IMG/VR virus record: IMGVR_UViG_3300031758_000043
Coordinates: 58,258 to 78,257 of that record
Length of the DNA: 20,000 nt
Strand: one strand, 5' to 3'
Origin: an uncultured virus (IMG/VR IMGVR_UViG_3300031758_000043)
Taxonomy: Duplodnaviria; Heunggongvirae; Uroviricota; Caudoviricetes
Both the position numbers and the translations under genes were made by a program. This document shows, one piece after another, positions 2,072 through 6,055 of this stretch (positions are counted from its first letter, which is position 1; each line of letters begins with the position of its first letter). Below the pieces are notes generated by a model. The model did no database searches. It worked only from the letters and a program-made list of their open reading frames with translations, and was not told the origin of the DNA.

Positions 2072-2338
2072 ATGAAGCTTCTTACTTTACTTACTTTTTT
2101 CACAAGCATGGGTATAGCCTTATCCCAGGAACCCATCATAAATGATTATGTCGTGGCTACGCCAGACAGATCTAAAGTCTGGATAATAAACAATCCGACT
2201 GGTCAATTAATATACGACAACTGGCAACAGAATCCAGAATACAATGGAATTAGGCCAAGTGTTGCCCTAGTTGAGGACCTGGAACCATATCGTAGGAGGG
2301 TAAAAAAGATGACTAAAAATTCTAAAAAAAGCAAATAA
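2072..2338 (+). CDS. Hypothetical protein with probable Sec signal peptide (88 aa)
   Basis: MKLLTLLTFFTSMGIALS|QEP: basic N-terminus, hydrophobic core, A-L-S cleavage site; basic C-terminus. Confidence 0.65.
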   Translation: MKLLTLLTFFTSMGIALSQEPIINDYVVATPDRSKVWIINNPTGQLIYDNWQQNPEYNGIRPSVALVEDLEPYRRRVKKMTKNSKKSK

Positions 2339-2339
2339 T

Positions 2340-2768
2340 ATGACTATTGCACAAGCATTAAAAGAAAAGAACAAAAAGGTGACTAAGTTATCTAGTATGT
2401 GGGACAGACTTCAGCGTTACAACGTGGTGAATGAGGGAGAGGCTAAACCGTATACTAGCGAAAATACTTGGGAGGAGATCAATCGATTAACTAGCGAACT
2501 GATAGAATTAAAGACTAGAATTCATGCGGCGTCTGAGCCTGTTCGAGCTAAGATCTTTATGCTTTCTGAACTAAAGAGCAAGGCACAACGACTAAAGGGT
2601 ATGAACACAAACAATGGAACCTATAGAGATCGTTATTCTGAAACAACTATCTCACAAGTAGCAGAGTTTGATGTGCTTTGGAAGGACGGAATGGTTGAAC
2701 TTATCGAAATGGAAATAGAAACTATTCAGGAAGAACTAGATAAGTTTAACCATACAACGAACATCTAG
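2340..2768 (+). CDS. DIP1984/septicolysin-like helical protein (142 aa)
   Basis: M-x-I-A-Q-A-L-K start, N.V.EGE...Y, L..L...I...S, RDRYS and terminal I..IQ.ELD.FN pattern resemble the DIP1984 family as recalled; not confirmed by search. Confidence 0.6.
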   Translation: MTIAQALKEKNKKVTKLSSMWDRLQRYNVVNEGEAKPYTSENTWEEINRLTSELIELKTRIHAASEPVRAKIFMLSELKSKAQRLKGMNTNNGTYRDRYSETTISQVAEFDVLWKDGMVELIEMEIETIQEELDKFNHTTNI

Positions 2769-2961
2769 GGCGGGCCCAAGACTAGGGAGCGGACTATTAG
2801 TATGTGAAGCAGCAAAGCTTTGTACAACTTCTAGACTTTAAAGGATGTTAGATGGTGATTGTGAGGGTCAAGATTCAAGATTCATAATGGTTCAACACTC
2901 TTCTGTCAAACATCAAAACTCTGGATTACTTTTAGACCATCACTTTTCACGGGCTTGCCCT
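2767..2961 (+). ncRNA. Putative structured RNA or 3' UTR element with 7-nt repeats
   Basis: Closing helix AGGGCGGGCCC (2767-2777) with GGGCTTGCCCT (2951-2961), 11 bp incl. 2 G-U; nested GTGAAG(2804-09)/TTTCAC(2945-50) and GATGGT(2851-56)/ACCATC(2936-41); terminator follows. Confidence 0.5.
2868..2926 (+). repeat. Degenerate 7-nt tandem repeat, TC(A)NNNN x8
   Basis: TCAAGAT TCAAGAT TCATAAT (GGT) TCAACAC TCTTCTG TCAAACA TCAAAAC TCTGGAT. Confidence 0.6.
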
Positions 2962-2972
2962 CCTATATATAG

Positions 2973-3001
2973 AAGAAGAGGATCTTTCGATCCTCTTCTT
3001 T
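2973..3001. terminator. Intrinsic terminator, probably bidirectional, between convergent transcription units
   Basis: Perfect 12-bp stem AAGAAGAGGATC-TTTC-GATCCTCTTCTT located between the end of the plus-strand block and the stop of minus gene 3003..3932. Confidence 0.85.
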
Positions 3002-3002
3002 G

Positions 3003-3932
3003 TTATAATATGATTTCTAAGATCTTTTCAGCGACGCTAATAAATTGATCACTAGTTAATACTGGTTCTCCAGGCTGAGTCGAAACTAATGCATACACGA
3101 TTCTGCTTCTATCTGAGATTCCTATTACTGCATGATCATCGTTATCGTTACTATCTCCTCCATCGTCGTCTTCAAATTCGTGAGTTATGCCATCCGAACT
3201 TCCTGGAATCAAGATCAGGTGATTTATCGTAGGGTCTGTGTCCAATGGATCTTCCAAATTAGTCTTATAGAAAAGGGTCCAGCCAGGTATGACTTCTTCA
3301 ATTGATCCGCCATTAACCGTGTCTTCATCTGAACCTACATTACCTGTTATCGAAAATTCTGATACTGATGTATTGTCAGCAACCATCACAAAGAGTCCAG
3401 GATACATGTTTGTGAAGTACTTTGATCCTGGTCCAAAGTAAGAGTTTCCGTCGCTTACTATACCATCCATTGGAGGACTTGTGTATTCGTTCTCATCATC
3501 TTCATTATCAGCCTGAGTGTGAGTGTACGGTATGCTGGTTGCTGCTAATGGATTATCCTCGTCTATCCCACCTTCTTTAATGATATCATACAGATTAGTC
3601 AAGTTAGTGTTCAAGTAGTTTCCACCGTCGTACATATCGTCTCCTCCGTCGTTTATTCCTGGCAAAGGATCGCCAGTCTCCCCGCTCGTAGTGTAATCGT
3701 CCCAAAAAAGATAGATGTTCGGCACAAGAGCAGTGATTTCAGAATACTTAGCATTCAATTTACTTAAAGCTAGATCTATCCACTCGCTAGTTTGGATTCT
3801 GCTGCCGCCTCCTACTCCTCCTTGAGCTTGAAGTCTCATGCGCATTGCTTGCTCATATAGAGCCTGTTGTTCAAAGAAAGATCGCAAGTCCTTTTGTTCT
3901 CTGCTCTCTTCTCCCCAATTTATAAATGACAT
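3003..3932 (-). CDS. Acidic hypothetical protein (309 aa), possible virion or head-associated protein
   Basis: Long ORF co-oriented with and downstream of head genes; helical N-terminal segment, GGVGGGS linker, then D/G/N-rich domain (INDGGDDMYDGGNYL). Confidence 0.8.
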   Translation of the reverse strand: MSFINWGEESREQKDLRSFFEQQALYEQAMRMRLQAQGGVGGGSRIQTSEWIDLALSKLNAKYSEITALVPNIYLFWDDYTTSGETGDPLPGINDGGDDMYDGGNYLNTNLTNLYDIIKEGGIDEDNPLAATSIPYTHTQADNEDDENEYTSPPMDGIVSDGNSYFGPGSKYFTNMYPGLFVMVADNTSVSEFSITGNVGSDEDTVNGGSIEEVIPGWTLFYKTNLEDPLDTDPTINHLILIPGSSDGITHEFEDDDGGDSNDNDDHAVIGISDRSRIVYALVSTQPGEPVLTSDQFISVAEKILEIIL

Positions 3933-3941
3933 AATAAAAGA

Positions 3942-4304
3942 TTATTTTAGTGTAAGCAAGTATTTTAGCTTATTTACTGCAGCAAGCAGCTCATCTCTCA
4001 GGTTTAAGAGATCACTATCTCGTTGAGGATTTAACTGATTATTAAGAGACAATAGGAAATCTGTAATAGTCTCTAAGAACTCATCCTGGTTCATCTCGCC
4101 GATGTTTGATAAGATAATTTGATCATCCTTTTCTACTGCAAGACGTCCATATTTTCCCATGTATATCTCTACGAAATCATCAGTCAGAGCGCTAAATGTA
4201 TCGTATGCTTCTCCATATGCTTGGTGTCGTGCGTAGGATTGGGTCTGCCAGTGTAGTACTTTAAACTGTGACTGTATGCCCAAGAACATTGATATGATTG
4301 TCAT
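3942..4304 (-). CDS. Ferritin-like / Dps-like protein (DUF5856-type of T4-like phages)
   Basis: LHWQT.SYARHQA...YD......DDFVE.YMGKYGR and terminal L.N.RDE.L..VNKLKYLLTL; H..H..D..E resembles Dps ferroxidase ligands. Confidence 0.8.
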   Translation of the reverse strand: MTIISMFLGIQSQFKVLHWQTQSYARHQAYGEAYDTFSALTDDFVEIYMGKYGRLAVEKDDQIILSNIGEMNQDEFLETITDFLLSLNNQLNPQRDSDLLNLRDELLAAVNKLKYLLTLK

Positions 4305-4387: not shown

Positions 4388-6055
4388 TTAGCTGAATGAA
4401 GGAGCAACACCACCAGTAAGAACTGCGATATCACCTTGGATATCCATGTTCACATACTGAGTTTCAGGATGCCATCCACCCTCTGTGATCGCGTAACGAG
4501 ATTTCATACCGATCTTAGGAGAGAATGTTCCTTCAGAGATAGTCTGAAGAGATTCAGCCATGATGTACGGCATGAATTTAACTCCAGGCTCCTCGTCTGC
4601 ACCTTTACGTCCGATACAGATTCTTGGATCTCCCCAAGATAAGTTAGGATCAACGTAAACTTGTACACCGTAAACTTTACCAGCTGGGTAAAGGTTACCT
4701 GCAACACCGCCCATATCAGTAGGTACAGTTGCAATAGAGTAACCAGCAACGTCAGCCAAAGCAGAAGCAAGGCGACCGTTGGTTACCATGAATGTACCAG
4801 CACCGAAACGACCTCTGTGGTAGATTAGGTTAGCAAGTTCAAGAACTTTAGTAACCAATCTTCTTTGCAATGTAGAAACGTTTTCGAATCCACCTGCACC
4901 AGCAGCTAGGTCAAGAGTAGTGATTCCAGCACCCTCAACTAGCGCGATCTCACCGTTGTGATAATCAGCCAATTGGAATACTCGGTCAACCAATCTCTTA
5001 TTGATAGATTGAGCAAGCTCGTTAACTGCTACGTTCTCTAACATAGAGATAACGTCGTAGTTCCAAACTCTGTTCAAGTCTTGGATCTGCTCAACAGTTG
5101 CAGAGATTGATACTTGATCAGTCTCAGCTTCAACGAACTTAGTGAACATTCTAAGACCCATTTGACGGAACTTAGAGTTCTCACCAGCTTCTCTCTTCAT
5201 TGATCCAGGAACGTTTCCTGTACCAGGAAGGTAAGAACCATTGAATTGGCTGCTAGTTGAAGATGTACCAGCATCCCAGTAATCAGCATCAGAAACTGAT
5301 GTGAAACCAGAAATGTGGTTCTCTAAAGCAGAAACCAACTGAACGTTAGCTGGAACAATTGCAGCAGAAGTATCACCAGCAATAGTGAAAGTAACACCAT
5401 TCAACTGAGTTGCAAGAGAATCACTAGTTCCATCGTCTTCAAGGATACGAACAATTGCCGTTCCGTCTACACGAGAGAATCCAACGAAATCTGCAGATCC
5501 ACCCCAACCTGCACCACCGGGAGTAACAGCGTCACCCGCAACAGCACTGTTGAAAGTAGAGTAGTCAAAACCTACAAGTTTAACCAAGTAAGGTTCGAAC
5601 TCAGAACCAGAAGTACGACCTCCAGCATATAGATAATCCAAGTAAGGAAGGAATCCAACTGGAGAATCCATAGGGATAACTGGAACTAGGTCGAAACCAA
5701 TAGTTTTTGCTGCTACTTGAATAGCAACTGGTAAAAGTGATGGAAATTTATCACCAGAACCGTTAGCGCTAGCTGAGAAAGAATTCTTAGCTCCTGCAGT
5801 GAACGGAGTCATTGCTGATGTTGGAGCTGATGGGTTCCCCATGAAACCACCAAGAGATCCTGGTGTTTGGAAGAACACTCCTGGAGAAGAATTCTCGAAT
5901 ACAGGTGCTGTGTTGTCGAAGATCGCGTGGTTGTGAGCGTACTCAGCTAACCAAGGCGTGTTCTCAACGTTCGCACCATATCCTTCAAGAATCGGCTTCC
6001 AGGTGTTTGTCAAACGAGTGTCGTTTGAACGTCTGAAAATTTTAGTACGTGCCAT
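4388..6055 (-). CDS. gp23: Major capsid protein (T4 gp23-like), 555 aa
   Basis: N-terminal WKPILE, DLVPVIPM.SP.G, TVEQIQDL, ELAQSINK, RGRFGAGTFMV, VYVDP, FMPYI, FSPKIGMKSRYAI; directly downstream of protease/scaffold; own terminator. Confidence 0.93.
   Translation of the reverse strand: MARTKIFRRSNDTRLTNTWKPILEGYGANVENTPWLAEYAHNHAIFDNTAPVFENSSPGVFFQTPGSLGGFMGNPSAPTSAMTPFTAGAKNSFSASANGSGDKFPSLLPVAIQVAAKTIGFDLVPVIPMDSPVGFLPYLDYLYAGGRTSGSEFEPYLVKLVGFDYSTFNSAVAGDAVTPGGAGWGGSADFVGFSRVDGTAIVRILEDDGTSDSLATQLNGVTFTIAGDTSAAIVPANVQLVSALENHISGFTSVSDADYWDAGTSSTSSQFNGSYLPGTGNVPGSMKREAGENSKFRQMGLRMFTKFVEAETDQVSISATVEQIQDLNRVWNYDVISMLENVAVNELAQSINKRLVDRVFQLADYHNGEIALVEGAGITTLDLAAGAGGFENVSTLQRRLVTKVLELANLIYHRGRFGAGTFMVTNGRLASALADVAGYSIATVPTDMGGVAGNLYPAGKVYGVQVYVDPNLSWGDPRICIGRKGADEEPGVKFMPYIMAESLQTISEGTFSPKIGMKSRYAITEGGWHPETQYVNMDIQGDIAVLTGGVAPSFS

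What the first reader, a model, noticed from the sequence alone, without database searches (positions are those of the whole stretch)
2340..3001. DIP1984-like gene followed by a structured RNA with a 7-nt repeat array: candidate protein-RNA module
Seen: in a densely coding genome, ~230 nt after this gene carry no credible ORF. The segment is clamped by an 11-bp GC-rich helix (2767-2777/2951-2961) that starts in the stop codon. Two more helices nest inside it (2804-09/2945-50, 2851-56/2936-41), possibly also AGGGT 2864-68/ACTCT 2918-22. They enclose eight TC(A)NNNN heptamers, and a 12-bp terminator follows. G-U pairs suggest the plus-strand RNA is the folded form. Inference: an oligomeric helical protein could bind the periodic heptamers one subunit per repeat, giving an RNP, a type III toxin-antitoxin-like pair, or an autoregulatory or sponge RNA. 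I do not recognise this as a described system.
Basis: partly seen in the sequence, partly recalled or inferred. Interest (0 to 1): 0.8.

Follow-up and report, generated by a model that had tools for sequence, protein, structure and literature searches.

The report
Phage helical-protein gene with partner RNA
A small helical protein gene of unknown function in a T4-like phage is always followed by a conserved, rod-shaped non-coding RNA that turns up on its own in river RNA samples, apparently joined head to tail, which points to an undescribed protein-RNA pair.

Summary
The 142-aa gene (2340-2768) is a remote DIP1984/DUF6847 relative: HMM hits fall below cut-off, but the fold matches PDB 3KDQ (Z 13.4). 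The ~200 nt after it are a conserved non-coding RNA. My covariance model finds it on the gene's strand, directly downstream, in 78 of 90 relatives, including ones with only 26-33% protein identity. It is single-copy and has no Rfam match. The architecture is a long closing rod with strong covariation, a small hairpin, and a core conserved in sequence that carries U(C/U)AA heptamers (lag-7 periodicity).

The unexpected result comes from three river metatranscriptomes. Their contigs cover only this element, at 99-100% identity. Two of the three are head-to-tail permuted, each with a 204-nt unit (about 2765-2968). This suggests a circular or concatemeric RNA cut at the base of the clamp.

Bona fide bacterial DIP1984 genes also carry a conserved 3' RNA. 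It differs in sequence and also has no Rfam match.

The type III toxin-antitoxin and DNA-element readings are not supported.

Protein-RNA binding and true circularity remain inferred. I rate it an undescribed protein-RNA module of high interest.

The parts
2340..2768 (+). DIP1984/DUF6847-like gene, 142 aa; helical bundle with one beta-hairpin
   Evidence: ORF. HMM hits below cut-off but full length. Model pLDDT 89. Fold match to 3KDQ. 159 homologues found.
2765..2968 (+). 204-nt unit seen head-to-tail in RNA contigs; the boundaries are ambiguous, running from 2763-2966 to 2769-2972
   Evidence: The X19 contig of 231 nt is permuted, with a joint 2966->2763 ('goes back 204'). The X22 contig covers 2786-2972 and then continues with 2769-2783. 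The X17 contig covers 2777-2976 colinearly.
2763..2768 (+). 5' copy (ATCTAG) of an imperfect direct repeat at the junction; it covers the last sense codon and the stop codon
   Evidence: Boundary repeats across the family are weakly enriched: mean longest shared string 4.33 against 4.0 permuted, reached by 4 of 200 permutations.
2967..2972 (+). 3' copy (ATATAG) of the direct repeat; it abuts the terminator stem
2767..2777 (+). 5' arm of the 11-bp clamp
   Evidence: Covariation of the outer helix is shown.
2951..2961 (+). 3' arm of the 11-bp clamp
2780..2802 (+). 5' strand of the interrupted inner rod (helices of 2-4 bp separated by 1-2-nt internal loops)
   Evidence: MFE. Family rods are listed. 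Alignment-free arm-to-arm duplex has mean z -3.36 in 49 elements.
2927..2948 (+). 3' strand of the interrupted inner rod
2803..2826 (+). P2 hairpin (2806-2810/2817-2821, loop AGCAAA), followed by the conserved UAC
   Evidence: This is helix 6: all 4 pairs have changes on both sides.
2844..2859 (+). Conserved GAU-repeat strand (GAUGUU A GAUGG UGAU)
   Evidence: Invariant GAT columns. It pairs with 2903-2914 in this window's MFE, but this pairing is not supported across the family.
2868..2888 (+). Three tandem heptamers: TCAAGAT, TCAAGAT, TCATAAT
2892..2926 (+). Five further TC-led heptamers, shifted in phase by 3 nt; they include the conserved UCAAAACUC at 2913-2921
2972..3001 (+). 13-bp hairpin with a T-rich 3' arm, lying between convergent genes; likely a terminator
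   Evidence: Equivalent hairpins occur in relatives. The simple scan did not call it.

Best explanation
The ~200 nt after the DIP1984-like gene are a gene for a stable non-coding RNA that is the conserved partner of that protein.

Proposed pathway:
1. The RNA is transcribed with the gene. No conserved promoter lies between them.
2. It is cut out at short, similar sequences on either side of the clamp (ATCTAG / ATATAG here).
3. The clamp and rod hold the two ends together.
4. The ends are joined into a 204-nt rod-shaped circle, or kept as a tightly closed linear form. The joining enzyme would be an RNA ligase of the phage or the host.
5. The closed rod protects the RNA. Its apical domain displays a G-poor array of U(C/U)AA heptamers and a GAU-repeat strand, both conserved in sequence.
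6. I take that array to be a multivalent binding platform for the co-encoded DIP1984-like protein, giving an RNP. Its target in the infected cell is unknown.

Shown: conservation, covariation of the rod, strict linkage to the gene, accumulation of the element alone in RNA samples, and head-to-tail junctions in contigs.

Inferred: covalent circularity in vivo, the ligase, binding by the protein, and any downstream function.
For: Linkage to the gene:
- Model R2 finds the element on the gene's strand, directly downstream, in 78 of 90 sources at E<=1 and in 59 at E<=0.01, with one stray minus-strand hit. The hits include Lentisphaerae-type loci with 26-33% protein identity.
- There is one copy per record, at the gene, in 4 of 5 large phage records.
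- Flanking genes differ between loci.
- In three loci a small ORF is inserted between gene and RNA, and the RNA is kept.

Structure:
- 88.4% of cells are paired against 65.8% shuffled. All 25 pairs have changes on both sides. No shuffle of 500 reaches the observed values, and slid controls give 30-53%. That alignment was fitted to the model.
- An alignment-free test of arm-to-arm duplex energy gives mean z -3.36; 35 of 49 elements have z below -2.
- Lentisphaerae-type clamps of 15-17 bp differ in sequence between loci.

RNA form:
- 6 RNA runs hold about 0.2 of the sampled words.
- In the 3 RNA runs laid, contigs cover only 2763-2976 at 99-100% identity, with mean depths of 4-8. Two are head-to-tail with a 204-nt unit.
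- The junction is absent from metagenome contigs and viral contigs.

Ligase candidates:
- PF09414 hits in 5 of 5 large records, 2 of them over the cut-off. PF09511 is over the cut-off in 2 of 5.
- An RNA ligase gene sits directly upstream of the DIP1984-like gene in L044.

Parallel in bacteria:
- 8 of 8 intact, readable bona fide DIP1984 loci, plus the frameshifted L128, carry a conserved 3' RNA.
Against: - Only contigs were laid, not raw reads. One of the three RNA contigs (X17) runs colinearly past the junction to 2976.
- The junction lies in 2-6 nt of microhomology, which is the mark of reverse-transcriptase template switching. Ligase steps in library preparation could also close such an RNA. 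RNA libraries can hold DNA.
- No ligase or RT was found in the window's own record, which is only 26% complete. RtcB was found in 0 of 5 large records. How common RNA ligases are in phages that lack the element was not measured.
- Binding of the protein to the RNA was not tested. Linkage could reflect co-transcription or a cis role in the mRNA.
- The GAU strand and the UCAA strand do not pair better than shuffles (mean z -0.33).
- The heptamer array in this window alone is not beyond chance.
- The phage-type and bacterial-type RNA models do not detect each other.
Confidence: 0.5

Rival explanations
1. The element is a linear, processed 3'-UTR-derived small RNA, or a stable decay-resistant 3' end. 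The head-to-tail junctions are artefacts: template switching between abundant short molecules, or in-vitro ligation of ends held together by the clamp.
For: - Microhomology at the junction (AT or TAG).
- The X17 contig is colinear to 2976.
- A de Bruijn graph closes into a cycle from few junction reads if the RNA has sharp ends. This point is inference.
- No junction was found in other collections.
Against: - At mean depths of only 6.5 and 4.1, junction words still made it into contigs in 2 of 3 runs. This argues against a rare artefact (inference).
- Both junctions give exactly 204 nt.
Confidence: 0.27
2. The element acts in cis on the mRNA. It would be a 3' stabiliser or insulator, or an operator through which the DIP1984-like protein controls its own mRNA, rather than a free RNP or sponge.
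For: - It always lies immediately 3' of the gene on the same strand.
- The clamp overlaps the stop codon here.
- The 5' cut would remove the stop codon from the mRNA.
Against: - RNA contigs hold the element without the coding region.
- In Lentisphaerae-type loci the clamp lies 70-120 nt past the stop, behind other hairpins.
- The ~100-nt core is conserved in sequence far beyond what a stabiliser needs.
Confidence: 0.15
3. It is a type III toxin-antitoxin-like pair, with a protein toxin neutralised by a repetitive RNA.
For: A protein gene sits next to a repeat-bearing RNA.
Against: - The protein has the DIP1984 helical fold, not an endoribonuclease fold.
- The RNA is downstream and its repeats are 7 nt long.
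- No ToxI or other Rfam match, even at E<=10.
- The PADLOC library was not scanned.
Confidence: 0.03
4. It is a DNA-level element, such as origin iterons, a recombination site, or the remnant of an inserted mobile element with a target-site duplication.
For: - Heptamer repeats.
- Short direct repeats at the boundaries, weakly enriched.
- Variable genomic neighbourhood.
Against: - G-U pairs exist on one strand only.
- Compensatory changes in helices.
- The element is present alone in RNA libraries.
- It is single-copy in each genome.
Confidence: 0.03

Closest known systems
DIP1984 family / DUF6847 (NF038048, PF20935; crystal structure 3KDQ of a Corynebacterium diphtheriae protein of unknown function)
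   Same: Full-length HMM alignment and the same fold: VIA Z 13.4, rmsd 3.2, 140 residues aligned; Foldseek TM 0.70-0.78. Cellular members also have a conserved 3' RNA closed by a clamp near the stop codon.
   Different: Scores are below both curated cut-offs. The bacterial RNA has other motifs: a T-arm-like hairpin, GCACA repeats and GAGGGNGGGNNNGGGG. It is not detected by the phage model, nor the phage RNA by the bacterial model. In the 20 papers listed the three family identifiers had no occurrence; only the old label 'septicolysin' appeared.
Type III toxin-antitoxin systems (ToxIN and relatives; features recalled, not from a call)
   Same: A protein gene adjacent to a repeat-bearing, protein-binding RNA, also found in phages.
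   Different: The toxin there is an endoribonuclease. The RNA lies upstream and consists of repeats of about 34-45 nt. Here the protein is a helical bundle, the RNA is downstream, the period is 7 nt, and there is no Rfam match.
[quoted passage not shown]
   Same: About 200 nt, rod-like, and seen as permuted contigs in metatranscriptomes.
   Different: Those have no DNA template and rely on self-cleaving ribozymes or RNA replication. This one is encoded in phage DNA (X14 DNA pieces; 90 DNA loci) and has no ribozyme match. That preprint notes a large set of ribozyme-less predicted circles left unanalysed and possible contamination with DNA-encoded sequences.
DucS, a non-coding RNA of Bacillus altitudinis with linear and circular forms (PMC10504365; only title and start of abstract seen)
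   Same: [quoted passage not shown]
   Different: It is a cellular sRNA without a dedicated partner gene. No sequence comparison was made here.
Ro60-Y RNA (YrlA) modules and the phage-linked large RNAs ROOL and GOLLD (recalled, not from a call)
   Same: A long closing stem formed by the 5' and 3' ends with an effector domain at the tip. Occurs in phages and next to tRNA genes; tRNAs follow the element in L046 and L075-L077.
   Different: No Rfam match to any of them. The partner protein is unrelated. None of them is known to be circular.

Membership tests
DIP1984 family (NF038048) / DUF6847 (PF20935) | HMM score at or above the curated cut-off | tested here: not met
   NF038048 35.2 bits against 70. 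PF20935 26.4 bits against 27. Some close homologues carry a precomputed PF20935 hit.
DIP1984 family (NF038048) / DUF6847 (PF20935) | Full-length alignment to the family profile | tested here: met
   Residues 3-141 align to profile positions 2-148 of 149.
DIP1984 family (NF038048) / DUF6847 (PF20935) | Fold of the solved member 3KDQ | tested here: met
   Foldseek E 6e-4, TM 0.70-0.78. VIA Z 13.4, well above the next row at 9.2.
Type III toxin-antitoxin (ToxIN-like) | Toxin with a ToxN/AbiQ-type endoribonuclease fold | tested here: inconclusive
   The model matches only 3KDQ clearly. No nuclease appears among the listed matches, but an unlisted family is not excluded.
Type III toxin-antitoxin (ToxIN-like) | Antitoxin RNA made of tandem repeats of about 34-45 nt, encoded upstream of the toxin gene | tested here: not met
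   The RNA is downstream, has a 7-nt period and only 2.4 exact copies. No ToxI match at E<=10.
Any Rfam 15 family | Covariance-model match | tested here: not met
   0 matches at gathering score in the whole window. Only chance-level hits with E 1.9-7.8 in 2700-3050. 0 matches in four related loci apart from tRNAs. 0 matches in three bacterial-type loci at E<=0.1.
Viroid-like circular RNA replicons | Covalently closed circular RNA | tested here: inconclusive
   Head-to-tail 204-nt contigs in 2 of 3 RNA runs. Contigs cannot prove covalent closure.
Viroid-like circular RNA replicons | No DNA template; self-cleaving ribozymes | tested here: not met
   The element is encoded in phage DNA. No ribozyme family match.
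Group I / group II intron circles | Intron catalytic core | tested here: not met
   No Intron_gpI or group II match. Exon ligation is not testable with contigs.
DRT2-type template RNA (rolling-circle reverse transcription; features recalled) | Adjacent reverse transcriptase, and a stop-free frame around the repeat unit | tested here: not met
   No RVT_1 in the own record, which is 26% complete. All six frames of the 204-nt circle contain stops; the best frame has one per unit.

The most novel reading that the evidence does not exclude
DIP1984-family proteins, a structural-genomics orphan, are the protein halves of an ancient and widespread RNP. In T4-like and jumbo phages of freshwater Bacteroidota and of gut Lentisphaerota, the RNA half is a DNA-encoded, viroid-shaped circle of about 200 nt. 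It is cut from the 3' end of the protein's own mRNA at short direct repeats and sealed by an RNA ligase. This would give T4-type RNA ligases a natural substrate other than broken tRNA. The circle would display a heptamer array that the protein oligomer, or a host factor it sequesters, reads one unit per repeat.
Probability: 0.35. Interest if true: 0.95.

Novelty: categorically new. Interest (0 to 1): 0.85.

Why it matters
- It gives a first functional handle on a protein family with a solved structure and no known function: every member examined comes with its own structured RNA.
- It adds a conserved non-coding RNA class, absent from Rfam, to large phages of abundant freshwater and gut bacteria.
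- If the head-to-tail form is a true circle, it would be a DNA-templated, non-intronic circular RNA made during phage infection. That bears on two open questions: what phage RNA ligases are for, and what the many ribozyme-less 'circular' RNAs in metatranscriptomes are.
- The system is small, about 640 nt for gene plus RNA, and is directly testable in a heterologous host.

Tried and rejected
**Searches that found nothing**
- Rfam at gathering and at permissive thresholds. ARAGORN on the window.
- DNA similarity to deposited phages: no match. Protein tblastn found only two unannotated huge-phage records.
- Junction probe in metagenome contigs and viral contigs, and an internal 30-mer in metagenome contigs: no match.
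- Five literature searches (listings and abstract starts only, plus passages) found no description of this RNA or of a phage-encoded non-intronic circular RNA.

**Readings tested and dropped**
- Endless ORF around the 204-nt unit: rejected, all six frames have stops.
- RT and RNA ligase in the own record: none, but the record is 26% complete.

**Structure analyses that did not work**
- RNAalifold on MAFFT alignment A3 gave 0 pairs because the helices were out of register.
- The brute-force covariation scan was noise.
- Pairing of the GAU strand with the UCAA strand: not supported.
- The clamp-counting script failed on most Lentisphaerae-type loci because of a faulty marker.

**Surveys that were infeasible or inconclusive**
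- A pattern scan for the RNA without the protein was judged infeasible. The candidate patterns matched 7-38 of 60 known members and were too unspecific.
- R3 over 151 Actinomycetota genomes: the only strong hit is a training sequence, and the second protein-positive genome is N-masked, so this is no independent test.

- Complex prediction (four copies of the protein) could not be queued. Self-association is therefore untested.
PMC9911046 is not held.
- The sigma-70 promoter scan gave fewer sites than shuffles.

Full report
**Setting.** The window is the last 20 kb of a 78-kb IMG/VR phage fragment that is 26% complete. It is T4-like: a topoisomerase II subunit lies at 439-1812 and a Gp23 major capsid protein at 4388-6055 on the minus strand. 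Gene 2340-2768 encodes 142 aa. Relatives sit on contigs binned with freshwater Crocinitomicaceae and Flavobacteriales MAGs and, at 26-33% identity, with rumen and gut Victivallales/Lentisphaerae MAGs. They also occur on phage records of 176-318 kb.

**The protein.**
- NCBIfam DIP1984_fam aligns end to end but scores 35.2 bits against a cut-off of 70. Pfam DUF6847 scores 26.4 bits against 27.
- An AlphaFold model built from 23 sequences has pLDDT 89.3. It shows four helices and one beta-hairpin.
- The model matches only 3KDQ, a Corynebacterium diphtheriae protein of unknown function: Foldseek TM 0.70-0.78 and VIA Z 13.4, with the next row at 9.2.
- The 'DIP1984-like' label therefore holds as a remote relative.
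- The word-index search found 159 homologues. The atlas shows mostly viral clusters.

**The observation.**
- The 11-bp clamp 2767-2777/2951-2961 is exact. It carries two G-U pairs and starts inside the TAG stop codon.
- The whole region folds better than shuffles on both strands: z is -3.76 and -3.97. Folding energy alone therefore does not choose the strand.
The MFE and the family structure instead use an interrupted rod (2780-2802 with 2927-2948) and a hairpin (2806-2810/2817-2821).
- In this window alone the heptamers are modest. TRF reports 2.4 exact copies, and 87 of 200 shuffles give a comparable triple.

**Conservation.**
- A scan of viral contigs with a protein alignment gave 128 relatives, of which the best 80 were kept. 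Together with the window they give 60 distinct downstream sequences.
- I seeded a covariance model with 9 close members and rebuilt it from 22 confident hits.
- I then searched 90 sources: the window, 59 distinct viral loci and 30 genome-collection loci. Identical duplicates, L002-L004 and the truncated L099 and L113 were left out.
- 78 sources have a hit on the gene's strand directly after the gene at E<=1, and 59 at E<=0.01. One stray minus-strand hit has E 0.62.
- Of the 12 misses, L050, L074, L097, L098, L100, L107, L108 and L111 show the motifs by eye. L102 and L109 appear to have the element further downstream. L087 and L110 were not inspected.
- Four of five large records have exactly one copy, at the gene. 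The fifth is a divergent member that the model misses.
- Flanking genes differ widely: topoisomerase, dCMP deaminase, UDP-galactopyranose mutase, phosphoesterase, several DUFs.
- In L034, L036 and L037 a small cysteine-rich ORF sits between gene and RNA, and the RNA is kept.
- No conserved ORF lies inside the element.

**Structure.**
- On the 22-sequence model-fitted alignment, 88.4% of cells pair against 65.8% in shuffles. All 25 pairs show changes on both sides. The covariation score is 0.605 against 0.225, reached by 0 of 500 shuffles. Slid controls give 30-53% paired. That alignment leans towards the model.
- I therefore added an alignment-free test on 49 elements. These are the hits with E<=1.4e-5, without the duplicates L014, L042 and L065 and the partial hit L035. 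The first and last 45 nt form a duplex with mean z -3.36. 35 of 49 have z below -2, and 24 of 49 are beaten by none of 200 shuffles.
- Rods commonly hold tandem G-A or GGA(U)/(U)GAA-type symmetric internal loops.
- In the Lentisphaerae type the clamp is 15-17 bp long, and its sequence differs between loci between conserved GAGAA and UUCUC ends.
- The core is conserved in sequence. It holds GAU repeats, then U(C/U)AA heptamers, and ends in UCAAAACU(C/U).
- Self-identity at lag 7 is 0.41 against 0.306 shuffled, with echoes at lags 14-15. The sequences are related, so the z value overstates independence.
- The two repeat strands do not pair better than shuffles (mean z -0.33), and the register differs between lineages. 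I read the core as a binding surface rather than a fixed helix.

**RNA evidence.**
- Six metatranscriptome runs hold about 0.2 of the sampled words of 2300-3050.
- I laid three of them and one DNA run.
- The RNA contigs cover only the element:
  - X17: 200 nt, 2777-2976, no differences.
  - X19: 231 nt and permuted, 2900-2966 followed by 2763-2926, reported as a joint that goes back 204 nt.
  - X22: 202 nt, 2786-2972, followed by 15 letters equal to 2769-2783, again a 204-nt unit.
- The two junction sequences differ by one letter, C or A. This fits either a crossover on different sides of the mismatch in the flanking repeat ATCTAG/ATATAG, or a synonymous variant.
- The DNA run holds only colinear 151-nt pieces.
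- At mean depths of 4-7, junction words that survive assembly are unlikely to come from a rare artefact. This is inference.
- Contigs cannot prove covalent closure. Microhomology is typical of template switching, and X17 runs past the junction.
- The 5' boundary lies in the last sense codon or the stop codon, so excision would leave the mRNA without its stop unless the flanks are rejoined. Rejoining at the repeat would restore Ile-stop. This too is inference.
- Similar short repeats that include the stop codon flank the element in several relatives, for example 8 nt in L024, L013 and L006. The enrichment is weak: 4.33 against 4.0, reached by 4 of 200 permutations.

**Ligase.**
- RNA-ligase-type domains occur in all five large records. 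PF09414 is over the cut-off in 2 and PF09511 in 2. RtcB occurs in none.
- In L044 an RNA ligase gene lies immediately upstream of the DIP1984-like gene. In L083 one lies 1.3 kb upstream.
- This is suggestive only. No control set of phages without the element was examined.

**Cellular relatives.**
- Bona fide DIP1984 genes, over the cut-off, are rare: 1 of 301 Bacteroidota genomes and 10 of 401 Actinomycetota genomes sampled.
- Eight intact, readable loci were examined: L117, L119-L123, L125 and L126. Left out were L124 (unpublished, not read), L127 (N-masked) and L128/L129 (one frameshifted gene).
- All eight have a conserved element of about 230 nt right after the stop, with a clamp near the stop codon. 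GAGGGNGGGNNNGGGG is present in 8 of 8, and a T-arm-like hairpin in 6 of 8. Other shared features are GGAGCAGGUAGCC and G-poor GCACA repeats. The alignment has 50 invariant columns.
- A model built from them also finds the element after the frameshifted gene in L128, at 39.8 bits.
- It has no Rfam match.
- Lag-7 periodicity is only weak in this set, z 2.6.
- The phage and bacterial models do not detect each other. The parallel is therefore one of arrangement, not of shown homology.
- In 151 Actinomycetota genomes the only strong RNA hit is a training sequence. The 12 weak hits of 17-25 bits mostly cover the T-arm region. They include the unpublished genomes G329 and G431, on which no claim rests.

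**Reading.**
- A conserved RNA tied to this gene: about 0.95.
- It accumulates as a discrete RNA: about 0.9.
- A head-to-tail form exists in vivo: about 0.65.
- The protein binds it through the repeat core: about 0.45.
- Type III toxin-antitoxin, DNA-element, intron, viroid-like replicon and DRT2-type readings each fail at least one defining feature tested here.
- I found no description of the RNA in Rfam 15 or in five full-text searches, for which I saw listings and abstract starts, plus passages.

Noticed in passing
L117, L119-L123, L125, L126, L128 (about 230 nt after the DIP1984 stop codon): Bona fide bacterial DIP1984 genes carry their own conserved 3' RNA. It has a T-arm-like hairpin, GCACA repeats and a GAGGGNGGGNNNGGGG motif, and has no Rfam match.
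   Followed up: partly
L044:303-1439 (+); L083:17-232: An RNA ligase gene (PF21189 + PF09414) lies directly upstream of the DIP1984-like gene in L044. The C-terminal part of a homologue lies 1.3 kb upstream in L083.
   Followed up: partly
L034, L036, L037 (about 195 nt after the gene's stop): A small cysteine-rich ORF (CxxC ... CxxC) is inserted exactly between the DIP1984-like gene and the RNA. Its close relatives L038 and L051 lack it.
   Followed up: no
L046, L075-L077 (just after the element); L117:1211-1422: tRNA genes directly follow the element in some phages. tRNA-Gly and tRNA-Val lie just upstream of the bacterial DIP1984 gene in L117.
   Followed up: no
L005:1927-2056: A GC-rich stretch of about 125 nt lies between the stop codon and the element in this one locus. 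It may be a further structured piece or an insertion.
   Followed up: no
window 3003-3932 (-), 3942-4304 (-): The convergent neighbour is a 309-aa, very acidic protein with no Pfam or PHROG match. Next to it is a DUF5856 protein (PHROG label: starvation-inducible regulator), ahead of the Gp23 capsid gene.
   Followed up: no
rods of many loci, e.g. L021, L023, L026, L027, L066, L040, L078, L083: A recurrent symmetric internal loop, 5'-GGA(U)-3' opposite 5'-(U)GAA-3' or tandem G-A, occurs in the closing rod. It may be a protein-recognition motif.
   Followed up: no
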